Virus record (IMG/VR): IMGVR_UViG_3300026224_000019
Coordinates: 1 to 36,209 of that record
From: a virus
Taxonomy: Duplodnaviria; Heunggongvirae; Uroviricota; Caudoviricetes
Reading direction: 5' to 3' (one strand)
Length of the DNA stretch: 36,209 nt
Shown: one piece after another, positions 1,419 to 32,085 of the stretch
Layout of the letters: each line of letters starts with the position of its first letter
Position numbering within the stretch: the stretch's first letter is position 1
Notes under the pieces: generated by a model
The model's input: only the letters and a program-made list of their open reading frames with translations
Told to the model about the DNA's origin: nothing
Database searches by the model: none
Translations under genes and position numbers: made by a program

Positions 1419-3899
1419 TTAAAAATCAGTCTGATTCGGGATCAGTTTTTGTATCGTGGCTGTAACGTATTTCGCCTGGTGACGGGCATCATCCAGCGCA
1501 TGGTGGCGCACGCCTTCAAATGGAATAACTGTTCTGGCATCGAAGCCGATAGTTTTTCCCAGTTCAACGATTGTACGTACATCGCGATCGTTGTAGTAAC
1601 GCCACGGGCAGGGGATGTTCAGGCGTTCGTACGAGGTTCGTAAAATAGTGTTGTCGAAAGTTGCACCATTGCCCCATACCTGAACGAATTTTTCATCTGA
1701 GTATTCGTTGATGAACTCCCGAAACCGCGAAAGGGCATCCTTCAGTTTTACCTGGTCTGTTAAAATGGCAGCTCTGGCTTCACTGGACTGCTTCAGCCAC
1801 CATTCGATGGTGCCACCGTCAGGAACAGCCCCTGTATTCATTGCGTCAGTCAGACTGATAACGATATAAAATACTGGCCCGATTTCCCCTGTTTGTGGGT
1901 CGAAGAAAACCGCACCAATAACCACGATGGGCGCATTGGCGTTGGTTCCCATTGTTTCAAGGTCGATCATCAGGTGGTACCACACTCTGCTGGTGGATGT
2001 GATAATGTGATGACCGTTCACCGCAATTAAGGGATCTGCCGTCTCGCCAGTTTTATTATCGCTGGCGTGGTCCTGAGCGCTGCCAGCATTCTTCTTGTGT
2101 GAATGTTCAGCGCCTTCCATTTCCTCCGGATCATCTTCCTGAACTTCAACCTGATACTCTTCATCGAATGTTTCCTGGTATGTTGCGTCGCCCATCACCG
2201 CGCCACAATCAGGGCAGTTGCCGCCGCCGGTTTGACCGCAGGCGGTGCAGACTTTTTCCGGTTCCTGTTGCGCTACTGGCTCAGGTTGTTTCGTTTCTGG
2301 CTCGTTTTGTAACGCATTTGGGCCGTTTTGTTCCGCTTTCTGGTCGTTCTGTTCCGTTTCTTGCTGGTTCTGATTCACTGAATCGCGGGTTTCAATCCCC
2401 TTCACCCATTTCGGATCATTCGGGTCGCTAATCCCTGCAACAAATTCACCACGTGATACAGCAAGCAACTTATCGGCGTCAGGCTGGCTGATATTGGCTG
2501 CCTGCATAATTTTGTTTACTTCGTCAGCGGTAACTTTTACCGGCTCTGGTTGTACGGTCGTGTCAGATGCACCAGTATTTTGTTGTGAACCTGAGTACGT
2601 GCCGTTTTTACGTGCGAAGTATTCCTCTTTTGTGATTTCCGTAGCTCCCAAAGCCAGCGCTTTTTCCAGACCAGAAAGTTTGTTTGCACGACCATATTTT
2701 TCGCCATCCTTATCGGTGAAAAGGAAGTAGAACGGCCCCTCACGCTCTACAGATGGTTCAGTTTCCAGCGTGCTTTCATTTTTTTGGGTATCAGATACTT
2801 CAGTTTCCACTGCATCAGTTTGTGCTGCTGACGGCTGGAGAATATCAGCAGTGCTCTGGTCTGTTTCTTCATCCTCAAACACGCCCTTTGTCGCCAGGTA
2901 TTCAGTGATGTATTTGTTCAGTGCCACGGGATCCTTGTGAATGTCGAGCGGACGCTCACGGACAAGACCAAAAATAGTCTGACGGTTGTAGCGAATGGCA
3001 TCAGGCTGTTTGCGCATTGATGCGGAAATGCGCTTCCAGTCTTCGCGGTCTTTGGCGATAACTTCATTTTCTGCCCAGCGAAGGATGTTACCGTCAATGC
3101 TTCCGGGGTCCGTATCACCAGGCCAGAGATAGCAGGCCAGCTCCCTGTCCAGCGCTTTCCATGTCTGCTTATATTCGCGACGAATGGCAGCAGTGGCAGG
3201 GTTGATTTTTTCTGCTGAGTTTTCAGTGTGCTGTCGGTTGACTCTGACGCGGGCAAGGTCAACAACAGACGTGTATTTTCCAGTCTCTTTGCGCTCTGCG
3301 TCCTGCCGTTTTTTCCAGTTACGTAATTCAGCCTGAATTTCGGGCCATTTGGCACTCGGCTTGCATTTGTGCTTAACCCATCCGATAGCGAACAGTTTGC
3401 GTTCCGGATACATAGCGTTAATTTCAGGCGTTTTCATCAATGCCTCAACGATATGCCCGTCGAATGTTGCCATGTCCTCCTGCAACAATTCCTGTGCACT
3501 AATCACCATATCAACGGTGATGTTTTCACATGTACCGAACTTAACCAGGACCGCGTTCTGTACTTCAAGGGACAGCTTGTCAAAATTGACGTTCATCGGA
3601 TCGGATTCTGGTTCGACCGGAATAAAGGAAGCGGATTCCTCATCCCAGCGGTTTTCCAGCATATATTCGGTATCCCAGGAGTCGATGGCAGGGCGGGGCA
3701 TGCCGGGTTTATCCTCGCAGACAAGAAATTTATAAGCGCAGTCCTGAGCAGCCGGATATTGCTCCAGGAATTGCCAGGTAAATTTGGCACGGGCGCGACG
3801 TTCGTCGCCGGCTTCAATGGCAGTGGCTACAGCGACTGCACCTTCTTCCTTTATTGCCTGTTCGTCCGGAATGGCGGCGCAAATAAAGACTTTACTCAT
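1419..3899 (-). CDS. Large prophage exonuclease (826 aa): C-terminal DnaQ-like 3'-5' exonuclease domain, N-terminal ~550 aa of unknown function with a Cys4 zinc-ribbon motif
   Basis: C-terminal MIDLETMGTNANAPIVVIGAVFFD ... HHALDDARHQAKY matches the DEDDh exonuclease motif pattern. CTACGQ...CPDCG zinc ribbon mid-protein. Occupies the recombination-gene position next to int/xis. Confidence 0.7.
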   Translation of the reverse strand: MSKVFICAAIPDEQAIKEEGAVAVATAIEAGDERRARAKFTWQFLEQYPAAQDCAYKFLVCEDKPGMPRPAIDSWDTEYMLENRWDEESASFIPVEPESDPMNVNFDKLSLEVQNAVLVKFGTCENITVDMVISAQELLQEDMATFDGHIVEALMKTPEINAMYPERKLFAIGWVKHKCKPSAKWPEIQAELRNWKKRQDAERKETGKYTSVVDLARVRVNRQHTENSAEKINPATAAIRREYKQTWKALDRELACYLWPGDTDPGSIDGNILRWAENEVIAKDREDWKRISASMRKQPDAIRYNRQTIFGLVRERPLDIHKDPVALNKYITEYLATKGVFEDEETDQSTADILQPSAAQTDAVETEVSDTQKNESTLETEPSVEREGPFYFLFTDKDGEKYGRANKLSGLEKALALGATEITKEEYFARKNGTYSGSQQNTGASDTTVQPEPVKVTADEVNKIMQAANISQPDADKLLAVSRGEFVAGISDPNDPKWVKGIETRDSVNQNQQETEQNDQKAEQNGPNALQNEPETKQPEPVAQQEPEKVCTACGQTGGGNCPDCGAVMGDATYQETFDEEYQVEVQEDDPEEMEGAEHSHKKNAGSAQDHASDNKTGETADPLIAVNGHHIITSTSRVWYHLMIDLETMGTNANAPIVVIGAVFFDPQTGEIGPVFYIVISLTDAMNTGAVPDGGTIEWWLKQSSEARAAILTDQVKLKDALSRFREFINEYSDEKFVQVWGNGATFDNTILRTSYERLNIPCPWRYYNDRDVRTIVELGKTIGFDARTVIPFEGVRHHALDDARHQAKYVTATIQKLIPNQTDF

Positions 3900-21084: not shown

Positions 21085-22596
21085 ATGGGTTTTTTTGATA
21101 AAGCACTTGGCGCAATTGCGCCAGGGTGGGCAGTTTCGCGCGCCAGAAACAAAATACTGCTGAGAGCTTATGAGGCGGCGCAGCCTTCACGCCTGAATAA
21201 GGCGCGGCGCGAGAGCCGTTCTGCCGATACAGCGGTTTTTTCTGCCGGTACCTCGTTAAGGGAGCAGGCCAGGGCGCTGGATGAAGATCACGATATCGTG
21301 ATTGGTCTGCTGGATAAGCTGGAAGAGCGGGTTATTGGTGCGCAGGGGATCCAGGTCGAACCACAACCACTGAGAAGCGATGGCACCCTGCATGAATCGC
21401 TGGCAGAGCAGATCTCGGCATTGTGGTCTGAATGGTCTGTTCGCCCTGAGGTCACGGGGATGTTCACCCGCCCGGAGGCCGAACGGATGGCATTGCGATC
21501 TGCTTTGCGTGATGGCGAGATGTTCGTACAACTGGTGCGTGGTCCTGTCGCCGGTCTGAATCATTCCACTGTGGTGCCATTATCACTGGAACTTCTCGAA
21601 GCAGATTTTGTTCCGGTCAGTCTGAACACGAACGCGGGTCAGCAAGTCCGCCAGGGCATTATTCTTAACAACTGGGGGCGGCCTGTAGGGTATCGGGTTT
21701 ATAAATACCATCCTGCAAATATGCGTGGATTCAGCGCCGATCTCAAAACTGTTCACGCAGACAACATGCTTCATCTGGCGATGCGGAAACGGCTTCATCA
21801 GGTGAGAGGTGTCAGCCTGTTACATGGTGTGATTCGCCGGATTGCTGATCTGAAAGATTATGAAGAATCAGAGCGTGTGGCTGCCCGTATTGCTGCCGCG
21901 CTGGGTTTCTACATTAAGCGTGGTGATGCCGCCAGCTTTCCGACGGATAACGACTGGACACCCACAGAACAAAAACCCCGGTACTTTGATATTTCGCCGG
22001 GCATGATTTTTGACGAACTGGCCCCCGGTGAAGATCTGGGGATGGTGGAGTCGAATCGTCCGAATGTTCATCTTTATGAATTCCGGAACGGGCAGTTGCG
22101 TGCTGTGGCTGCCGGAACCCGTGGCAGTTATTCCAGTATTGCCCGTGACTATAACGGCTCCTACAGTTCGCAGCGTCAGGAGCTGGTGGAAGGTTACGAA
22201 GGCTACGGGGTTTTACAGCAGTGGTTTGTCGGTCAGTACAGCCGCCCGGTGTACCGGGCATGGCTGGAGCAGGCGATACCTTTTCTTGAAATTCCTCCTG
22301 ATGTGGATATGTCCACGCTTTTCAATGCCACTTATCTTGGCCCGGTGATGCCGTGGATTGATCCGGTGAAGGAGGCTGCAGCATGGCGGGCCATTCTTCG
22401 CGGTGGTGCCGGGACGGAGGCCGAGTGGATACGTGCCCGTGGGCAGTCACCGCAGGAGGTCAAACGTCAGCGACTGCGTGAAACTGAATTTAACCGGGAA
22501 AACGGGCTGGTGTTCGATTCTGACGCCGCTAACGATAAAGGAGTGATCCCTGATGCAGCAAATGATAAACCCGCGTCTTCGCGGGACGATGATTAA
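21085..22596 (+). CDS. Portal protein, lambda gpB family (503 aa)
   Basis: Size, position and N-terminus MGFFDKALGAIAPGW typical of lambda-family portal proteins. Confidence 0.85.
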   Translation: MGFFDKALGAIAPGWAVSRARNKILLRAYEAAQPSRLNKARRESRSADTAVFSAGTSLREQARALDEDHDIVIGLLDKLEERVIGAQGIQVEPQPLRSDGTLHESLAEQISALWSEWSVRPEVTGMFTRPEAERMALRSALRDGEMFVQLVRGPVAGLNHSTVVPLSLELLEADFVPVSLNTNAGQQVRQGIILNNWGRPVGYRVYKYHPANMRGFSADLKTVHADNMLHLAMRKRLHQVRGVSLLHGVIRRIADLKDYEESERVAARIAAALGFYIKRGDAASFPTDNDWTPTEQKPRYFDISPGMIFDELAPGEDLGMVESNRPNVHLYEFRNGQLRAVAAGTRGSYSSIARDYNGSYSSQRQELVEGYEGYGVLQQWFVGQYSRPVYRAWLEQAIPFLEIPPDVDMSTLFNATYLGPVMPWIDPVKEAAAWRAILRGGAGTEAEWIRARGQSPQEVKRQRLRETEFNRENGLVFDSDAANDKGVIPDAANDKPASSRDDD

Positions 22597-24643
22597 TCCC
22601 CGCGCCAGCCTTGCGGGGGTGGATGCCGCTAATGGTCAGTGCTGGTATGAAATCCGTGCACAGACTGCCGGGCGGGTGGAAATTTACCTCTATGACGTGA
22701 TTGGCGGATGGGGCATCACCGCGCAGCAGTTTATTGCTGACTGTAAGGATGCGGGGGTGTTTGAGGCCAGCGCTATTGATCTGCATATCCACAGCCCGGG
22801 CGGTGATGTGATGCAGGGGTTTGCCATCTTTAACACGCTGTCACGGCTGAAAGCGAAGGTGGATATCTGGGTGGATGGTGTTGCAGCCAGCATGGCCTCC
22901 ATGATTGTCTGCCTGCCAGGCGCCACAGTGCATATGCCTGAAAATTCCTGGCTGATGGTGCACAAGCCGTGGGGCGGGATCGCCGGTGATTCCGATGATA
23001 TGCGTGATTATGCTGACTGGCTGGATCGCAACGAGGCGCTGATGCTGTCAGCCTACATGAATAAAACCGGACTCGGGCAGGAGGAGCTGGAAGCCATGCT
23101 GAAAGCAGAAACCTGGCTGAACGGTGCTGAAGCCGTGGAAAAAGGCTTCGCTGATACGCTTGAACCTGAATTACAGGCTGCGGCCTGTGTGAACCAAAAT
23201 AAACTGAAGGATTACCATAATATGCCAGAACAGATTAACGCGCTTTTTGCTCCACGTGCAGAAACGACAAACGGACAGCCGCAGGAGCCGAAAGCAACCC
23301 CGCAAAATGCGCAACAGATCGCTGCTCAGCAGGCACCATCAACCGGAAATGTGGATATCAGCGCAATTGCTTCGCAGGTTCAGCAACAACTGATGGCAGC
23401 CAATGCGGAACGTGTGCAGGCTGTAACCGCAGTTTTTGCCTCTTTCCCGTCTTATGCCGCACTGAAAGCGGAGTGTCTGAACGACATGACCTGTACGGAA
23501 GCACAGGCCCGTGAAAAACTGTTGCAGGCGCTGGCAGCCGGAACGACACCAAGTGCAGGCCCGGGCGCTGTTCATATTCATGCCGGGAACGGTAATCTGG
23601 TCGGCGATTCCATTCGTGCGGCTGTGATGGCACGCGCCGGATATGCCGAAGCAGAAAAAGATAATGCTTATAACGGTTTTACACTGCGCGAGCTGGCGCG
23701 TGCTTCGCTGGTTGATCGCGGTATCGGTATCTCCGGTCATTCCGCACCGATGGCGATGGTGGGGCTGGCATTTACTCACAGCAGCAGCGATTTCGGCAAT
23801 ATCCTGATGGATGTGGCTCATAAAGCTGCGTTGCAGGGCTGGGATGATGCCAGCGAAAATTTTGACAAATGGACCCGCAAGGGAACGCTGACTGATTTTA
23901 AAACCGCGCATCGTGTCGGGCTGGAAACTTTCCCGACGCTACGAAAAGTATTGCCGGGGGCTGAATATAAATATGTGACCCTGAAAGATCGTGGCGAACC
24001 GATTGCACTGGCGACTTATGGCGAATTGTTCAGCATTGATCGCCAGACCATCATCAATGATGACCTGGATATGCTGACCCGTATTCCGATGGCAATGGGG
24101 GCGGCAGCGCGGACTACCGTGGGTGATCTGGTCTGGGCCGTGCTGACCAGCAATCCGAAAATGTCGGATGGCAAACCGCTGTTCCATGCAGATCATGGCA
24201 ACCTGGTGACTGCAGATTTGTCTATTGAGGGGCTGGATTCCGGGCGTAAAGCCATGCTGCTCCAGAAATCGGGTGACCGCCGCCTGAACATTCGTCCTGC
24301 TTTTATGTTGACGCCTGTTGCCATTGAGTCGCGTGCCAATCAGTTGATTAAGTCTGCCAGCGTGCCCGGTGCAGATGCGAACAGCGGCATTATTAACCCG
24401 ATTCAGAATTTTGCCACGGTTCTGTCAGAGGCCCGCCTTGATGACAGCAGCCCGACGGATTATTACCTGGTGGCAGCGCAGGGGCGTGACACGATTGAAG
24501 TGGCTTACCTCGACGGTATTGATACGCCGTATCTGGAGCAGCAACAGGGCTTTACGGTTGATGGTGCAGCATTCAAGGTGCGCATTGATGCCGGAGTGGC
24601 ACCGCTTGACTGGCGTGGCATGGTCAAAGTGAAAAAACAATAA
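22553..24643 (+). CDS. Prohead protease (ClpP/S14-like) fused to major capsid protein (696 aa)
   Basis: N-terminal ClpP-like region (IHSPGGDVMQGFAIFNTL, MVHKPWGG); C-terminal ~350 aa has capsid-like character; no separate major capsid gene follows. AAGGAG RBS before ATG 22553. Confidence 0.7.
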   Translation: MQQMINPRLRGTMINPRASLAGVDAANGQCWYEIRAQTAGRVEIYLYDVIGGWGITAQQFIADCKDAGVFEASAIDLHIHSPGGDVMQGFAIFNTLSRLKAKVDIWVDGVAASMASMIVCLPGATVHMPENSWLMVHKPWGGIAGDSDDMRDYADWLDRNEALMLSAYMNKTGLGQEELEAMLKAETWLNGAEAVEKGFADTLEPELQAAACVNQNKLKDYHNMPEQINALFAPRAETTNGQPQEPKATPQNAQQIAAQQAPSTGNVDISAIASQVQQQLMAANAERVQAVTAVFASFPSYAALKAECLNDMTCTEAQAREKLLQALAAGTTPSAGPGAVHIHAGNGNLVGDSIRAAVMARAGYAEAEKDNAYNGFTLRELARASLVDRGIGISGHSAPMAMVGLAFTHSSSDFGNILMDVAHKAALQGWDDASENFDKWTRKGTLTDFKTAHRVGLETFPTLRKVLPGAEYKYVTLKDRGEPIALATYGELFSIDRQTIINDDLDMLTRIPMAMGAAARTTVGDLVWAVLTSNPKMSDGKPLFHADHGNLVTADLSIEGLDSGRKAMLLQKSGDRRLNIRPAFMLTPVAIESRANQLIKSASVPGADANSGIINPIQNFATVLSEARLDDSSPTDYYLVAAQGRDTIEVAYLDGIDTPYLEQQQGFTVDGAAFKVRIDAGVAPLDWRGMVKVKKQ

Positions 24644-27325: not shown

Positions 27326-27342
27326 ATGTCCGGAGAATGCAA

Positions 27343-28803
27343 ATGGGGCAATTACATGGTGTGGAAACCATCGAGCTGACAGCAGGCACGGTGGCAGTAA
27401 CCACAATAGAGACAGCCATTATTGGTGTGGTGGGAACCGCGCCGCAGGCTGCCGGAGCTGTGGCAGCGACACTGACAGCGGGAACGCCGCTGCTGGATAA
27501 CGAGCTGACCTTTACGGCAAAAGCGGGGGGACGGAGCGGAAATACCATTACCGTTATTGCTGAACAGGCTGTCAAAGAAAAAAGTGCGGGTGCGGTTCCC
27601 ACGTCAGCAAAATGGGAAAACGGAAGCCTGTTGATTTGGCTTGGATGCAGTGAAGAGGGGGCAGGCAATGCCACCGTCAGTGATGTTGTGACGGCGGTGA
27701 ATGGTGTGGCGGGGGCCGGGGTGAGTGCCACCGGCAGCGGTGACGGTATTGTGTCGCCGTTTTCCGGCACACTGAGTGGCGGTGAAGATGAACCGTTTCC
27801 GCTGAACACGCCAGTGGCGATGGCGGGAACAACGGCGCTTTCACGTCTGGGGATCACCGGAACACTGAAGCAGGCGCTGACGGAGATTAACGACCAGCGT
27901 AACGCGCTGTCGGTGATCGTCCGGGTGGAAGAAAAAACGAAGCCGGAAGAGCAGCGTGCTGCCATTCTTGCGGGGATCAGCATGCTGTCATCGGCAAAAT
28001 CCGTCACCACGTATCAGCCACGTATTGTGATTGCACCAGGATTCAGTGAAGACGATGCGGTGGGTAAGGCACTGGAAACGGTGGCCGGAAAACTGCGTGC
28101 AGTGGCGTACGTGGATTGTGCTGCGGGCGCGACACTGCAGGATGTGGTGCAGCGTCGCCAGTCTTACGGTGCCAGGACTGAATTACTGCGCCCGCGTGTG
28201 CAGGTCAGTAATGCAGAGGGGCAACTGGTGTATCGCCCGTATTCGGCCTTTGCTGCCGGACTGCGTGCCCGTATTGACTATGAAAAAGGGTGGTGGTGGA
28301 GCAAATCAAACCAGGAGGTTTACAACATCCTCGGTGTTGAGCAGGTGGATGAATTTATCCTCGGTGAGCGTAACTGCGATGCCAACCTGCTTAATATGCA
28401 GAATGTCTCCACCCTGATCCGCCGCGCCGGATTTAAACACTGGGGAAACCGGCTGTGCTCGTCCCATCCTCAGTGGCATTTCGAGTCCGTCCGCCGTACT
28501 GCGGATGTGATTGAAGACAGTATCCAGGAGGCGATGCTGGCGTATGTTGACCGCCCGCTCGATCGCCAGAATGCGGACGACATTATTGGCACCATTAATG
28601 CGTATATGCGCCGTCTGGTGGCAGAAGGTGCCATCTTCGGGGGGCGGGCATGGCTGGATCCGGAACTGAATACCGCCGAAACGCTGGCAGCCGGTGAACT
28701 GTACATCAACTATGACTTCGGTCCCAAATCGCCGACTGAACTTATCAGCATGCGGGTGAGCGTCAACAACGAATACGGCATTAAGGAGATGACGGCAACA
28801 TGA
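27343..28803 (+). CDS. Contractile tail sheath protein (P2 FI-like)
   Basis: N-terminus MGQLHGVETIEL...TAIIGVVGTA parallels P2 FI (HHGVQVLEI...TAIVGMVCTA); C-terminal GFKHWGNR motif. ATG chosen by RBS spacing. Confidence 0.85.
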   Translation: MGQLHGVETIELTAGTVAVTTIETAIIGVVGTAPQAAGAVAATLTAGTPLLDNELTFTAKAGGRSGNTITVIAEQAVKEKSAGAVPTSAKWENGSLLIWLGCSEEGAGNATVSDVVTAVNGVAGAGVSATGSGDGIVSPFSGTLSGGEDEPFPLNTPVAMAGTTALSRLGITGTLKQALTEINDQRNALSVIVRVEEKTKPEEQRAAILAGISMLSSAKSVTTYQPRIVIAPGFSEDDAVGKALETVAGKLRAVAYVDCAAGATLQDVVQRRQSYGARTELLRPRVQVSNAEGQLVYRPYSAFAAGLRARIDYEKGWWWSKSNQEVYNILGVEQVDEFILGERNCDANLLNMQNVSTLIRRAGFKHWGNRLCSSHPQWHFESVRRTADVIEDSIQEAMLAYVDRPLDRQNADDIIGTINAYMRRLVAEGAIFGGRAWLDPELNTAETLAAGELYINYDFGPKSPTELISMRVSVNNEYGIKEMTAT

Positions 28804-29306
28804 GCAGTAAAAACACATTACGGGCCTGGACTTTTTTCCGCCAGGGGATCCGTATTCAGGGAGCGCATGAGTTCACGCCCCCCACGCTGTCCATAACCAC
28901 CACTGATTTACGCACCGGGGCACAGGATGCCCCCACGCCGGTTGACGACGGCATGGAGGCGCTGACCTGCCAGATTAAATTCTATGGTCTGGATACAGAC
29001 ATGCTGTCCAGTCTCGGATTTGTCAGTGGCAACCGCTCCCGCTTCACGGCCTATCAGGGCTATCTGGCAAACGGCACCGCGCTGGGGACCACCGAAGAAA
29101 TCGAAGGTTTTGTGAAAACGGTGACGCCGGATGCACGTGGAAACAGCAGCCTGTCAGAAAATGCGGTGACAGTGGAAATCGCGGTGAATTATTACCGTCA
29201 GACGCTGGAGGGGATCGAACTCATTATGATTGATACCGAGCGTTTTGAGCGTCGGATCAACGGCGTGAATGTTCTCGCCGGCCTGTCGGCAAAAGTGCGT
29301 CTCTGA
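28800..29306 (+). CDS. Tail tube protein (P2 FII-like)
   Basis: Follows the sheath with overlapping start (ATGA); size 168 aa. Confidence 0.8.
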   Translation: MSSKNTLRAWTFFRQGIRIQGAHEFTPPTLSITTTDLRTGAQDAPTPVDDGMEALTCQIKFYGLDTDMLSSLGFVSGNRSRFTAYQGYLANGTALGTTEEIEGFVKTVTPDARGNSSLSENAVTVEIAVNYYRQTLEGIELIMIDTERFERRINGVNVLAGLSAKVRL

Positions 29307-29324
29307 GCACTGATTAACGCATAA

Positions 29325-29346
29325 CGGCCTGCGGGCCGTTTTTTTT
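29325..29346 (+). terminator. Intrinsic terminator after the tail tube gene
   Basis: CGGCC-TGCG-GGCCG followed by TTTTTTTT, then AAGGAG RBS of the next gene. Confidence 0.6.
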
Positions 29347-29358
29347 AAGGAGCAGATT

Positions 29359-29658
29359 ATGAATATTCCGGGTGAAACCCGCACCATCACACTGTACACG
29401 CCGGTCACTCTGGGGGGCGGTGCTGTGCTGGAACGTATCACCATGCGCGAACCGCTGGTGCGCGATCGCATTGCCTTCACCAAAGACCGGGGAACAGAGG
29501 AGGAAAAAGAGGCGCGTATGATTGCGCAGCTTTGTAATCTGAGTGAGCAGGATATCTGGCTGCTGACCGCAGCGGATTATGCCCAGCTGACGGATGCCTT
29601 TAATGTTTTTATGCTGCCACCCGGGAAGCGACCGAAACCGAAATCTTCAGAGGGTTAA
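29359..29658 (+). CDS. Tail assembly chaperone (P2 gpE-like, 99 aa)
   Basis: Position between tube and tape measure; AAGGAG RBS. Confidence 0.7.
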   Translation: MNIPGETRTITLYTPVTLGGGAVLERITMREPLVRDRIAFTKDRGTEEEKEARMIAQLCNLSEQDIWLLTAADYAQLTDAFNVFMLPPGKRPKPKSSEG

Positions 29659-29786
29659 GGTTTCTCGGGCGGCGGCTGCATTTTCCTCTTTCCGATTATC
29701 TGTCCATGCCGTTCAGTGTGTTTACGGCATTTTTACTGGATGAAGTGGAGGCAGTAAAACGTGGGAAGCGTAAGCCAGAATCTTAA
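29604..29786 (+). other. Candidate E-prime extension frame (-1 relative to the chaperone), reachable by programmed frameshift
   Basis: The -1 frame is open from 29604 to a TAA at 29784-29786 and overlaps the tape measure start, as for P2 E+E'. No canonical X XXY YYZ heptamer was found; GTTTTTA at 29605-29611 is the best candidate. Confidence 0.35.
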
Positions 29787-31419
29787 GGCCACCGTGTCGT
29801 TCGGGGGCAAACTGGACAGTTCGTGGCGTCGTTCGGCGACGGATCTGCGAAAAAATCTGCAGGATGTGGAGCAGCAGGCTGCGCGTTTGCGTAAAGAGCA
29901 GGCAGAGCTGGCGGCAGAAATGAAACGGGCGGCGCTGGCAGGGAAACGTTTTAAGTCGATGGAGGATGAATACGCCCGGCTCACGGCTGAAATTAAGAAA
30001 GCGGATGCGGCCCAGAAAAAACTGAACCGGAGCCTTGAGCGTCGCGATCGGCTCGGACGTTTTATGGGGAAGGGAAAAAGCCTGCTTGCCGGAACCGGTA
30101 AATTTGCCTGGAATGCCGGTCTGGCGATGGGGGGCGGTGCCGTGACCACGGCACTTGGTGCGCTGATTGCTCCGGCTGCCATGAATGCGCAGACGGCTGA
30201 AACAGCGGGTAAAGCGACTGCGTATGGCGTGGATACCCGCACGTACATGAACTGGGACGCCCTGGCAAAACAGTACGATATGACCGGCGATAATATCGGG
30301 GATCTGTTTGAGGAATACCTGCATAAGGCCGGGGAATATAAACAAAATGGCAAGCAGAGTTCGCTTTCTGACGCCTTTGAAACGCTGGGATTTGAGGAAG
30401 GCGATCTTGCCGGACTGAGTGATAAGGAACAGTTCGAAAAAATTATCGACAGGGCGCTGTCACTGAAGGATGAATCAAAGGCATCGTTTGCGCTGGATGC
30501 ATTGTTTGGTGGTGAAGCCAGTAAACTGCTGATGCTGATCAAACGTTCTGGAAAAAGTTTTCAGGAACTGCTGGCTGAGCAGGATAAATATAACCTGGTG
30601 ACAAAAGAGGGTGTGGCTGGCGCACTCGCCGGAAACAAGGCTGTTTCTGATTTGCAGCAGGTTTTTTCTTCTGCGGTTGCAGAAATTTCCGGACAACTGG
30701 GCGCAGAGCTGGCCCCCGCCATACAAGAGACAGCGGGTGACCTGGCAGAGTGGTTTAAAGGCGGAGGCATTAAAAAGGTTGTGTCTTTTCTGAGGGACAC
30801 GCTGTATCCGGCGGCCCTGAAGTTCGGCGAAGGCGTCATTTTTGTCGGAAAAATTATTTTTGCAGTAGCCAAAAAACTCGCCTGGTTATTACCGGATGAA
30901 CAGGGCGATCAGAAGCAGATTCTGGAGTATGTCGGGCGTGGTGACATGACCGCTGCCCGGACAGTGGCCCGGAACAGCGGGCAGGATGCCTGGCTTGATG
31001 AGCAACTGAAAAATAATCCGGATTTTGAAAAGAATGTCCGTGAAAAATATAACGCCGCGAAGGGCTTTATGGGCATTGTGGATACGGATGCGTTTCATGA
31101 ATCGGTGAACAGTTACCTCACGCCGGAAAAAACGTTCGATTTTTCGTTGCCGGCAGCGCAGGCAGGATCTGCCGGAAAACAGGATGATCCTTTTGCCAGT
31201 GCGGGAGCATGGCAGGCTGCCGTGCAGGCCATTCCTGTTGAGGGCGGACAGTCCGGCGCACAGCTGAATGACAACAGCGTGAAGAATTATAACTTCAACA
31301 TTGTTGCGCAGCCCGGACAGAGCGAACAGGGTATTGCGGACGCCATTGCCGGTATGACGAAAAACAACCCGGCCTTCAGTGGTAATAATGCGTTGTGGGA
31401 TGGAGGAAGTGTCTGGTGA
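29761..31419 (+). CDS. Tail tape measure protein (552 aa)
   Basis: Long Ala/Gly-rich, coiled-coil-rich ORF after the chaperone; GTG start with GTGGAGG RBS. Confidence 0.8.
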   Translation: MGSVSQNLKATVSFGGKLDSSWRRSATDLRKNLQDVEQQAARLRKEQAELAAEMKRAALAGKRFKSMEDEYARLTAEIKKADAAQKKLNRSLERRDRLGRFMGKGKSLLAGTGKFAWNAGLAMGGGAVTTALGALIAPAAMNAQTAETAGKATAYGVDTRTYMNWDALAKQYDMTGDNIGDLFEEYLHKAGEYKQNGKQSSLSDAFETLGFEEGDLAGLSDKEQFEKIIDRALSLKDESKASFALDALFGGEASKLLMLIKRSGKSFQELLAEQDKYNLVTKEGVAGALAGNKAVSDLQQVFSSAVAEISGQLGAELAPAIQETAGDLAEWFKGGGIKKVVSFLRDTLYPAALKFGEGVIFVGKIIFAVAKKLAWLLPDEQGDQKQILEYVGRGDMTAARTVARNSGQDAWLDEQLKNNPDFEKNVREKYNAAKGFMGIVDTDAFHESVNSYLTPEKTFDFSLPAAQAGSAGKQDDPFASAGAWQAAVQAIPVEGGQSGAQLNDNSVKNYNFNIVAQPGQSEQGIADAIAGMTKNNPAFSGNNALWDGGSVW

Positions 31420-31895
31420 GTGTGGGTTCGGTTATTGCTCTCGCTGAAGACAGCCTTCAGCGTGACAACAGTTATCTCCGTGGTGCTGCAGATGCCAGAG
31501 TCATGCTGATGCTGGGGGATTTCGCCTTTTCCGTGGATACCACGGCATATAACCAGCTGACCCGTGAGGCGGGGTGGACCTGGAGCGAGCAGGCGCGCAT
31601 CGGTCAGCAGAGTCTGCTGCAGTACACCGGGAAGAACGGGCGAACCGTTCGCCTTGAAGGGGAATCGCACGCCTTTTTGGGGAAGTCGGGGACGGAGGCG
31701 GTGAACACGCTGTATGACCTAGCGAATAAGGCTGAGCCGCAACTGCTGGTCAGCGGAGAAGGTGATGTGCTGGGATGGTGGGTGGTGGAGCGTTTTTCTG
31801 ATTCCACCGACCGTTTTTTGCCTGGCGGTGGGCACCGTAACAAAAAGTGGAGTCTGGAGCTGAAACATTATGCCGACGATCTGGATAACCCGTGA
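31416..31895 (+). CDS. Tail protein U (P2 gpU-like)
   Basis: MLMLGDFAFSVDTTAYNQLTREAGWTW parallels P2 gpU (MMVLGLFVFMLQTVPYQELQYQRSWRH). GTG start overlaps the tape measure stop (GTGA); an in-frame ATG at 31503 is an alternative. Confidence 0.6.
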   Translation: MSVGSVIALAEDSLQRDNSYLRGAADARVMLMLGDFAFSVDTTAYNQLTREAGWTWSEQARIGQQSLLQYTGKNGRTVRLEGESHAFLGKSGTEAVNTLYDLANKAEPQLLVSGEGDVLGWWVVERFSDSTDRFLPGGGHRNKKWSLELKHYADDLDNP

Positions 31896-32085
31896 CGGGG
31901 ATGTGCTTGATGCGATTTGCGCCACGCATTACGGCACGGAAAATCTGTCTGCCGTGCTCACTCTTGTGCTGGAGGCCAATCAGGGGCTGGCAGAGAAAGG
32001 CGCGGTTTATCCGGCGGGGATCCGCATTGCGTTGCCTGAAATCACACAACAGGTGTCTGAGTCGCCATACAGCCTGTGGGATTAA
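31870..32085 (+). CDS. Tail protein X (P2 gpX-like, 71 aa)
   Basis: TRDGDVLDAICATHYG...VLEANQGLAEKGAVYPAGIRIALPE...LW parallels P2 gpX. Confidence 0.7.
   Translation: MPTIWITRDGDVLDAICATHYGTENLSAVLTLVLEANQGLAEKGAVYPAGIRIALPEITQQVSESPYSLWD

What the first reader, a model, noticed from the sequence alone, without database searches (positions are those of the whole stretch)
29359..29786. Tail chaperone with a candidate E/E-prime programmed frameshift lacking a canonical slippery heptamer
The -1 frame is open from 29604 to 29786 and overlaps the tape measure start, the conserved architecture of P2 E+E' and lambda G/GT. I could not find a canonical X XXY YYZ site in the 3' 55 nt of the chaperone gene; GTTTTTA (29605-29611) is the best candidate. 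The +1 frame also carries a 46-codon ORF (29603-29743). The shift mechanism or direction may therefore be unusual.
Basis: partly seen in the sequence, partly recalled or inferred. Interest (0 to 1): 0.45.

Follow-up and report, generated by a model that had tools for sequence, protein, structure and literature searches.

The report
Unannotated tail-chaperone frameshift on UUUU
An E. coli prophage tail-chaperone gene almost certainly makes a second, longer protein by the usual -1 ribosomal slip, using a minimal four-base U_UUU site instead of the textbook seven-base one; this is ordinary biology that genome annotation has missed.

Summary
The 99-codon chaperone gene (29359-29658, Pfam PF10109) lies between the tail tube and tape-measure genes. 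It is overlapped by a 60-codon -1 frame (29604-29786) that has no start codon of its own, and no in-phase X_XXY_YYZ heptamer is present.

Comparison with about 80 related loci settles the direction:
- The -1 extension is always open and under purifying selection (pN/pS 0.37).
- The +1 frame is not conserved (pN/pS about 2).

The shift must fall within 29604-29643. The only slippery element shared by all 45 distinct relatives there is the in-phase tetramer U_UUU (29607-29610, within GTT TTT ATG). Its Val and Phe codons are frozen at synonymous sites. It sits on the family-invariant Phe codon, the same place as P2's proven T_TTT_TTG.

Z_ZZN tetramers, U_UUU included, are documented -1 motifs in E. 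coli. About half of 68 diverse family members also lack a heptamer. So neither the mechanism nor the direction is unusual.

The predicted product is a 142-aa E+E' fusion, join(29359..29610, 29610..29786). A stable downstream hairpin exists in this window but is not demonstrably conserved. RefSeq and the related phage records do not annotate the fusion. Low interest: a new member of a known kind.

The parts
29323..29346 (+). Terminator-like hairpin plus T-run between the tail tube gene and the chaperone gene. It may attenuate transcription into the chaperone and tape-measure genes.
   Evidence: Pattern scan. A T-run upstream of the start codon is present in most related loci. Function is inferred.
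29347..29352 (+). Shine-Dalgarno AAGGAG of the chaperone gene, 6 nt before the ATG.
   Evidence: Read from the sequence. GGAG is conserved in relatives.
29359..29658 (+). Frame-0 tail assembly chaperone ('E'), 99 aa, the major product.
   Evidence: PF10109 Phage_TAC_7 at 2e-13 and phrog_166 at 1e-24. 79 homologous protein clusters. Frame-0 pN/pS is 0.21.
29607..29610 (+). Proposed -1 shift site: in-phase tetramer U_UUU, within GU[U_UUU]AUG. tRNA-Phe on UUU 29608-10 re-pairs to UUU 29607-09.
   Evidence: It is the only in-phase Z_ZZN present in all 45 unique overlap sequences. Val83 is GTT in 20/20 and Phe84 is TTT in 21/21, whereas Val34 uses four codons and Phe81 two. GTTTTTATG is found in 57/57 viral-contig CDSs. 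The position is homologous to P2 T_TTT_TTG. The tetramer is functional in E. coli reporters (PMC4066793).
29610..29786 (+). -1 frame extension ('E''), 58 codons plus stop. The predicted fusion, join(29359..29610, 29610..29786), is 142 aa with the junction ...AFNVF|YAATREATE...
   Evidence: Open and conserved in all relatives. pN/pS is 0.37 in the -1 frame against 0.98 and 1.99 in the others, and the third-position periodicity switches to the -1 frame. There is no internal start codon.
29613..29676 (+). Predicted long hairpin downstream of the shift site. It is a possible stimulator, and its inner GC-rich stem starts 9 nt after UUUU.
   Evidence: MFE -33.8 kcal/mol. z is -2.2 (96 nt), -3.55 (75 nt) and -2.45 against synonymous randomisation. 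It is not supported across homologues: no covariation and mean z about -0.5.
29747..29751 (+). Shine-Dalgarno GGAGG of the tape-measure gene, lying inside the E' coding sequence.
   Evidence: Read from the sequence. Conserved in alignment A2.
29761..31419 (+). Tape-measure protein gene (GTG start, 552 aa). Its first 26 nt overlap the end of E'.
   Evidence: Its position between the chaperone and gpU. The start column is GTG or ATG in all relatives. RefSeq names it 'AAA family ATPase'.

Best explanation
This is the E/E+E' (lambda G/GT-type) tail assembly chaperone pair of a P2-type contractile tail in an E. coli prophage. Most ribosomes translate 29359-29658 and release the 99-aa chaperone. A minority slip back one base when tRNA-Phe is decoding UUU at 29608-29610. 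The anticodon re-pairs perfectly with UUU at 29607-29609 (tetramer U_UUU). The next codon read is UAU (29610-12), and translation continues in the -1 frame to TAA 29784-86. This gives a 142-aa fusion, ...AFNVF-YAATREATE...KPES.

By analogy with lambda and P2, the shared N-terminal part coats the tape-measure protein and the E' part recruits tube subunits. The slip frequency fixes the ratio of the two proteins.

Shown here: gene context, family membership, a conserved and selected -1 extension without its own start, the interval that must contain the shift, the invariance of U_UUU, and its homology to the P2 site.

Inferred: that the slip happens at all, its efficiency, whether tRNA-Phe slips in the A or the P site, and the role of the downstream hairpin.
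For: - Context: sheath, tube, PF10109 chaperone, tape measure, gpU, gpX, gpD in that order.
- The -1 frame is open for 57-82 codons with the conserved motif RFLGRRLHFPxxDYLxMPF in 21 genome and phage loci. In 55 of 57 unique viral-contig CDSs it runs 58 codons after the Phe codon.
- In the extension, pN/pS is 0.37 in the -1 frame against 0.98 in frame 0 and 1.99 in the +1 frame. Third-position entropy switches from frame 0 to the -1 frame.
- The frame-0 stop position varies and the -1 frame opens only at 29604 in most relatives. The shift is therefore confined to 29604-29643.
- Within that interval U_UUU is the only in-phase slippery tetramer present in 45 of 45 unique sequences.
- Synonymous sites of GTT TTT are frozen, while the flanking codons and other Val and Phe codons of the same gene vary.
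- The Phe codon is nearly invariant across the wider family. It carries the slip site in P2 (T_TTT_TTG, annotated and experimentally established; PMC3091744), Wolbachia WO, Mica and Alexa (A_AAT_TTT), and phiRSP (G_GGT_TTT).
- The nearest outgroup, Serratia locus L019, has the canonical T_TTT_TTG exactly where the window has T_TTT_ATG.
- U_UUU is the third most efficient -1 tetramer in E. coli reporters. With a stimulator, the six tetramers that clearly worked ranged from 0.26 to 5.6%, and tetramers are used in IS elements (PMC4066793).
- The predicted fusion is 142 aa, the same length as P2 E+E'.
Against: - There is no direct evidence of the fusion protein.
- Tetramers alone were barely above background in reporters without a stimulator (PMC4066793). 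The downstream hairpin seen in this window shows no covariation and no consistent excess stability in relatives.
- Immediately after the site (the LPP codons) the substitution pattern follows frame 0, not the -1 frame, so the overlap region itself does not pinpoint the site.
- E' does not hit Pfam PF06528, which recognises P2 E'. The profile alignment to P2 E+E' is weak (E 0.023).
Confidence: 0.8

Rival explanations
1. Transcriptional slippage: RNA polymerase inserts one extra U at the T5 run (29606-29610), so a fraction of mRNAs carry E and E' in one frame.
For: The T5 run is invariant in the clade. An insertion of one base would give the same -1 frame and the same protein.
Against: Known programmed transcriptional realignment uses runs longer than 7-8 A or T (PMC3711429; longer from my own knowledge). 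Relatives place ribosomal-type motifs that are not homopolymer runs at the same spot: A_AAT_TTT, G_GGT_TTT, GTA_AAG, GAT_TTC.
Confidence: 0.04
2. The -1 shift occurs at the last sense codon before the frame-0 stop (G_GGU_UAA, 29652-29658), stimulated by slow termination.
For: G_GGU followed by a stop is in phase in the window. A stop codon in the A site is a classical pause.
Against: It is present in only 2 of 45 unique relatives. In 22 of 45 the frame-0 stop lies 12 nt upstream of this position, so the conserved extension residues encoded before it could not be reached. The -1 residues upstream of it (REATE..I.R) are conserved.
Confidence: 0.03
3. A Mu-like -2 (or +1) shift into the +1 frame ORF 29594/29603-29743.
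For: The +1 frame is open for 50 codons in the window. Phage Mu uses a -2 shift in its chaperone gene (PMC5009743).
Against: In relatives the +1 frame is open for anything from 19 to 75 codons, has no conserved sequence, and gives pN/pS 1.99.
Confidence: 0.01
4. There is no recoding. The -1 ORF is made independently, or is a relic, and only the 99-aa protein matters.
For: No database record annotates a fusion. Hafnia phage yong2 has a separate 39-aa ORF called in this frame. E' has no Pfam or NCBIfam hit.
Against: There is no ATG/GTG/TTG in the -1 frame before the last 23 codons, yet the most conserved residues lie upstream of that. Purifying selection acts on the -1 frame. The slippery site is frozen at synonymous positions.
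Confidence: 0.05

Closest known systems
Bacteriophage P2 gpE / gpE+E' (-1 frameshift at T_TTT_TTG; Christie et al. 2002, as cited in PMC3091744)
   Same: - The same gene slot between tube (FII) and tape measure (T).
- The same chaperone family, PF10109.
- The slip lies on the same conserved Phe codon (GGT TTT TTG against GTT TTT ATG).
- The fusion is 142 aa in both.
- E' overlaps the tape-measure start.
- The motif HFPLSDYLSMP resembles P2 HWPPSELYPMS.
   Different: - One base (A instead of T) removes the second half of the heptamer and leaves only U_UUU.
- E' is not recognised by PF06528.
- E is only weakly similar to P2 E (hhalign E 0.023).
- The prophage is not a P2 relative overall: it has a lambda-type integrase, terminase and portal.
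Lambda gpG / gpGT (G_GGA_AAG) and the conserved tail-chaperone frameshift of Xu, Hendrix and Duda 2004
   Same: The same logic: two products with a common N-terminus in a fixed ratio, encoded just upstream of the tape-measure gene (PMC5009743).
   Different: No sequence similarity, a contractile rather than a non-contractile tail, and a tetramer rather than a heptamer.
Z_ZZN tetranucleotide -1 frameshift motifs in E. coli (Sharma et al. 2014, PMC4066793) and in IS1/IS3 elements
   Same: U_UUU is in phase, allows cognate re-pairing of tRNA-Phe, and is one of the three most shift-prone tetramers.
   Different: In the reporters the tetramers needed a strong pseudoknot. Here no conserved stimulator could be shown.
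Tetramer-only sites in other PF10109 chaperone genes: Pseudomonas phage ZRG1 (TCT_TTT_TCG), E. coli phage vB_EcoM-569R10 (GTA_AAG), and many IMG/VR contigs (GCT_TTT_CTC, GAT_TTC_...)
   Same: The same family, the same position, and no canonical heptamer.
   Different: Different flanking codons. None of these is annotated as frameshifted in the phage records fetched here, and I know of no experimental test.

Membership tests
P2 E/E+E' (lambda G/GT-type) tail-chaperone programmed -1 frameshift | The gene lies between the tail tube (major tail) gene and the tape-measure gene. | tested here: met
   Tube 28800-29306 (PF04985), chaperone 29359-29658, tape measure 29761-31419, then gpU, gpX and gpD.
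P2 E/E+E' (lambda G/GT-type) tail-chaperone programmed -1 frameshift | The frame-0 product belongs to a tail assembly chaperone family. | tested here: met
   PF10109 Phage_TAC_7 at E 2e-13 (score 50.6, cut-off 25). phrog_166 at 1e-24.
P2 E/E+E' (lambda G/GT-type) tail-chaperone programmed -1 frameshift | An overlapping -1 ORF without its own start, running to or over the tape-measure start, conserved and under selection. | tested here: met
   pN/pS is 0.37 in the -1 frame, and the frame is open in all relatives.
P2 E/E+E' (lambda G/GT-type) tail-chaperone programmed -1 frameshift | A canonical X_XXY_YYZ slippery heptamer in phase within the overlap. | tested here: not met
   No in-phase heptamer in the window or in the other clade sequences with GTTTTTATG. 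Of the 45 sequences only locus L019 has one (T_TTT_TTG). Only the tetramer U_UUU is present in all. The heptamer is usual but not universal in this family: 36 of 68 diverse members have one.
P2 E/E+E' (lambda G/GT-type) tail-chaperone programmed -1 frameshift | The slip site is at the position homologous to the proven P2 site. | tested here: met
   Phe84 aligns with the P2 slip-site Phe and is nearly invariant in family alignment A5.
P2 E/E+E' (lambda G/GT-type) tail-chaperone programmed -1 frameshift | The extension belongs to Pfam PF06528 (Phage_P2_GpE). | tested here: not met
   No hit even at E<=10, whereas P2 E' scores 2e-22. Only a short motif resemblance is seen.
P2 E/E+E' (lambda G/GT-type) tail-chaperone programmed -1 frameshift | Two proteins with a common N-terminus are actually produced, and both are needed for tail assembly. 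| not testable with these tools
   Needs western blot or mass spectrometry, plus genetics.
Z_ZZN tetramer -1 frameshift signals (Sharma et al. 2014) | [quoted passage not shown] | tested here: met
   GU U_UUU AUG: UUU 29608-10 re-pairs to UUU 29607-09.
Z_ZZN tetramer -1 frameshift signals (Sharma et al. 2014) | A flanking stimulator: a downstream structure 5-9 nt away or an upstream SD-like element. | tested here: inconclusive
   The window hairpin is stable. There is no covariation and the mean z in relatives is about -0.5. An upstream GGA lies 12 nt before the site in 17 of 19 sequences, but it is weak.
Mu-type -2 frameshift in the tail chaperone gene | A conserved extension in the +1 (that is, -2) frame. 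| tested here: not met
   The +1 frame varies in length and gives pN/pS 1.99.
Programmed transcriptional realignment | A long homopolymeric A or T run (about 8 or more). | tested here: not met
   The run is only T5. Relatives use non-homopolymer motifs at the same site.

The most novel reading that the evidence does not exclude
The core recoding signal of the whole PF10109 chaperone family may be the tetramer U_UUY on one invariant Phe codon, with the heptamer as an optional add-on. In this reading, about half of the family, including this widespread Enterobacterales prophage clade, makes an essential tail protein from a tetramer alone. It may be helped by a long-range hairpin whose two arms are the Leu-Pro-Pro codons of frame 0 and the Gly-Arg-Arg codons of the -1 frame. 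That would be a natural, essential, tetramer-only -1 frameshift in E. coli, suitable for studying single-tRNA slippage.
Probability: 0.4. Interest if true: 0.35.

Novelty: new member of a known kind. Interest (0 to 1): 0.2.

Why it matters
The value is mainly practical. A tail protein that is probably essential (142-aa E+E') is missing from RefSeq annotation of these E. coli prophages and from two isolated phages (Citrobacter phage Chris1, Hafnia phage yong2). Heptamer-based frameshift finders will keep missing it and roughly half of its family.

For recoding specialists it adds a well-conserved natural example of a U_UUU tetramer site at a position where relatives carry full heptamers. It does not change the current picture of tail assembly or of frameshifting.

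Tried and rejected
- Megablast of the tail module against phage genomes found nothing. Protein-level search was needed.
- A shift at the frame-0 stop (G_GGT_TAA) was my first guess for the junction. I rejected it because the stop position varies and the motif is present in 2 of 45 relatives.
- A conserved downstream RNA structure was tested four ways, and none gave support across the family:
  - RNAalifold gave only a trivial -1.9 kcal/mol consensus.
  - The window's own hairpin, counted on 17 homologues, paired in 66% of cells, no better than shuffles, with no excess of compensatory changes.
  - Per-sequence dinucleotide-shuffle z-scores averaged -0.47.
  - Synonymous randomisation of the 3' arm averaged z -0.49, with 8 of 19 below -1 and 5 above +1.
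- Pfam and NCBIfam searches for E' gave no hit.
- A PDB sequence search found no relative.
- A viral-contig scan with the E. coli phage 569R10 chaperone placed first returned mostly the same clade and added little.
- The Christie 2002 paper is not held in the library. There is no paper on phage yong2.
- I considered a link between the invariant Pro-Pro pause motif and the slip. The pause would occur 3-4 codons after the ribosome has passed UUUU, and a collided trailing ribosome would sit about 10 codons upstream. I do not propose it as a stimulator.

Full report
**What is in the sequence**

Window 27.3-33.3 kb encodes a P2-type contractile tail module. In order:
- sheath (27340-28803; PF04984, PF17482)
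- tube (28800-29306; PF04985)
- a 99-aa protein (29359-29658) that hits Pfam PF10109 'Phage tail assembly chaperone proteins E, or 41 or 14' (2e-13) and phrog_166 (1e-24)
- a 552-aa tape-measure candidate (GTG 29761-31419)
- gpU, tail protein X and gpD

- The -1 frame is open from 29604 (after TAA 29601-03) to TAA 29784-86.
- It has no ATG, GTG or TTG until 23 codons before its end.
- It overlaps the tape-measure start by 26 nt.
- The +1 frame is open 29591-29740.
- GTTTTTA is at 29605-11.
- No in-phase X_XXY_YYZ heptamer lies in the overlap.

By my estimate, a 60-codon open frame and one slippery tetramer are not beyond chance in a single sequence. The case therefore rests on comparison with relatives.

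**Origin**

The region is 99.8% identical to an E. coli chromosome. It occurs in 16 of 5,426 complete E. coli genomes. The window as a whole is a mosaic prophage: lambda-type integrase, gpA-type terminase, lambda-family portal, a ClpP-protease/capsid fusion, and the P2-type tail.

RefSeq annotates only the 99-aa 'phage tail assembly protein' and calls the tape measure an 'AAA family ATPase'. The related isolated phages Citrobacter phage Chris1 and Hafnia phage yong2 also lack a joined CDS.

**Direction of the shift**

I examined 19 loci from Enterobacterales genomes plus the two phages. The genera are Providencia, Citrobacter, Pantoea, Enterobacter, Scandinavium, Erwinia, Tatumella, Rouxiella, Rosenbergiella, Izhakiella and Serratia. 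Amino-acid identity to the window ranges from 53 to 83%.

- The -1 frame is always open for 57-82 codons.
- It encodes a conserved sequence: ..REATE..I.RAIRFLGRRLHFPxxDYLxMPFSxF..DE.E...
- The +1 frame is open for anything from 19 to 75 codons and shows no conservation.
- In 57 further unique CDSs from viral contigs, the -1 extension is 58 codons after the Phe codon in 55.

Substitution patterns agree.

| Region | Frame 0 pN/pS | -1 frame pN/pS | +1 frame pN/pS | Where variation concentrates |
|---|---|---|---|---|
| Body of the gene | 0.21 | 1.35 | 2.34 | frame-0 third positions |
| Beyond the frame-0 stop (29659-29757) | 0.98 | 0.37 | 1.99 | -1 frame third positions |

The -1 frame is therefore translated and the +1 frame is not. 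A Mu-like -2 shift is excluded.

**Where the shift happens**

In most relatives the -1 frame opens only at the position of 29604. In 22 of 45 unique sequences the frame-0 stop lies at the position of 29644. The shift must therefore fall within 29604-29643.

Among 45 unique overlap sequences, the only in-phase Z_ZZN tetramer present in all is U_UUU on Phe84 (window 29607-29610).
- The next most frequent, C_CCG, is in 30 of 45 and is absent from the window.
- G_GGU before the stop is in 2 of 45.

The two codons that form the site are frozen at synonymous positions, while other codons in the same gene vary.

| Codon | Genome and phage loci | Viral-contig CDSs |
|---|---|---|
| Val83 (site) | GTT 20/20 | within GTTTTTATG, 57/57 |
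| Phe84 (site) | TTT 21/21 | within GTTTTTATG, 57/57 |
| Val34 | GTG 7, GTA 5, GTT 7, GTC 2 | four codons used |
| Phe81 | TTT 13, TTC 7 | TTT 44, TTC 13 |
| Asn82 (adjacent) | not counted | AAT 30, AAC 26 |

Entropy at frame-0 third positions is 0.0 across GTTTTTATG, against 1.30 just upstream and 1.01 just downstream.

The T at the third position of Val83 has no coding reason to be fixed in either frame. The need for a U_UUU slip site is the explanation I can offer.

**Homology to known sites**

P2's annotated and experimentally established site is GGT TTT TTG. It gives E (91 aa) and E+E' (142 aa) (PMC3091744).

A profile alignment, although weak (E 0.023), places the window's Phe84 on P2's slip-site Phe. 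It also aligns HFPLSDYLSMP with P2 HWPPSELYPMS.

In an alignment of ten divergent PF10109 chaperones this Phe is nearly invariant. The motif around it varies:
- T_TTT_TTG in P2, Wolbachia WO and the Serratia locus L019, the nearest outgroup of the window's clade
- A_AAT_TTT in Burkholderia phage Mica (annotated as frameshifted) and Acinetobacter phage Alexa
- G_GGT_TTT in Ralstonia phage phiRSP
- TCT_TTT_TCG in Pseudomonas phage ZRG1
- GTA_AAG, two codons later, in E. coli phage vB_EcoM-569R10

The window differs from the canonical T_TTT_TTG by a single base (ATG for TTG).

**How unusual is the missing heptamer?**

It is not unusual. Of 68 diverse, unique family loci from viral contigs with a -1 extension of at least 30 codons:
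- 36 have an in-phase canonical heptamer
- 32 have only a tetramer: U_UUU 23, U_UUC 7, A_AAG 2

Sharma et al. tested all 16 Z_ZZN tetramers in E. coli (PMC4066793).
- With a strong downstream pseudoknot the hierarchy was A_AAG >> U_UUC > U_UUU > C_CCY > A_AAA.
- The six tetramers that clearly worked ranged from 0.26 to 5.6%.
- Without a stimulator they were barely above background.
- Tetramers are used by IS1 and IS3 elements.

The PRFect tool also lists a run of five identical bases among its backward-slip motifs (PMC10885494). Lambda needs only about a 30:1 ratio of the two products (PMC5009743). A percent-level tetramer would therefore be adequate.

**Stimulators**

The window has a stable predicted hairpin at 29613-29676.
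- MFE is -33.8 kcal/mol.
- z is -2.2 over 96 nt and -3.55 over 75 nt.
- z is -2.45 against synonymous randomisation of its 3' arm.

In about 11 of 19 relatives the MFE contains a CCGCCCG/CGGGCGG stem starting 6 nt after UUUU.

Conservation of the structure is not supported:
- RNAalifold finds no consensus structure.
- The window's structure is paired in 66% of cells in homologues, no better than shuffles, and there is no excess of compensatory changes.
- Mean z-scores are about -0.5.

Both arms encode conserved residues (Leu-Pro-Pro in frame 0, Gly-Arg-Arg in the -1 frame). Their complementarity may therefore be a by-product of coding. P2 itself is reported to lack a downstream structure (PMC3091744). 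I treat the hairpin as a possible, unproven stimulator.

**Mechanism proposed**

1. tRNA-Phe decoding UUU (29608-10) re-pairs to UUU (29607-09).
2. UAU (29610-12) is read next.
3. Translation ends at TAA 29784-86.
4. The product is join(29359..29610, 29610..29786), 142 aa, with the junction ...AFNVF|YAATREATE...

Whether the slip occurs with tRNA-Phe in the A site (tRNA-Val in P cannot re-pair) or in the P site with AUG awaiting its tRNA cannot be decided here. The chaperone roles of the two products are inferred from lambda and P2.

**Rivals**

- Transcriptional slippage on T5 is unlikely. The run is short, and relatives use non-homopolymer ribosomal motifs at the same place.
- A shift at the stop codon is window-specific.
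- A -2/+1 shift is refuted.
- Independent initiation is ruled out by the lack of a start codon upstream of the most conserved residues.

**Verdict**

This is a real and conserved, but ordinary, tail-chaperone -1 frameshift that uses a known minimal motif. It is unannotated, and heptamer-based searches would miss it. It is a new member of a known kind, of low interest (0.2).

Noticed in passing
window 29761-31419: The tape-measure gene (552 aa, GTG start with GGAGG 29747-51) has no Pfam hit and only weak coiled-coil-type NCBIfam hits. RefSeq names it 'AAA family ATPase', which looks like a misannotation. It is short compared with P2 gpT (2448 nt), which suggests a shorter tail.
   Followed up: partly
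window 29323-29346: A terminator-like hairpin (7 bp, 5 GC) followed by a T-run sits between the tube gene stop and the chaperone start. A T-run is present upstream of the start in most relatives. It may be an attenuator that lowers chaperone and tape-measure expression relative to sheath and tube.
   Followed up: partly
window 29614-29625: Leu-Pro-Pro is invariant two codons after the slip site (Pro-Pro-Gly in the window). Pro-Pro-X is a known EF-P-dependent pause motif. The geometry (3-4 codons past the site) argues against a role in the slip, so its conservation may reflect chaperone function.
   Followed up: no
window 29610-29783 (-1 frame): The E' extension family (RFLGRRLHFPxxDYLxMPF) is not covered by Pfam PF06528 or by NCBIfam. 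This probably explains why annotation pipelines never call it. Its HFPxxDYLxMP motif resembles P2 E' HWPPSELYPMS.
   Followed up: partly
window 1419-3899 (- strand): An 826-aa ORF lies next to the lambda-type integrase. It has a C-terminal Rv2179c-like 3'-5' exoribonuclease domain (4e-68). About 640 N-terminal residues have no Pfam hit.
   Followed up: no
window 22553-24643: A single 696-aa ORF combines a ClpP-type protease domain with a major capsid domain (PF25209, and a weak Mu gpT hit). Together with the lambda-type terminase and portal and the P2-type tail, this makes the prophage a head/tail mosaic.
   Followed up: no
window 31870-32085: Tail protein X (PF05489) lies between gpU and gpD here. 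In the P2 region fetched, U is followed directly by D.
   Followed up: no
L026:935-940 (Escherichia phage vB_EcoM-569R10) and L027 (Pseudomonas phage ZRG1): These related chaperone genes also lack a heptamer. They appear to use GTA_AAG (A_AAG) and TCT_TTT_TCG (U_UUU), with -1 extensions of 56 and 62 codons. Neither is annotated as frameshifted.
   Followed up: partly
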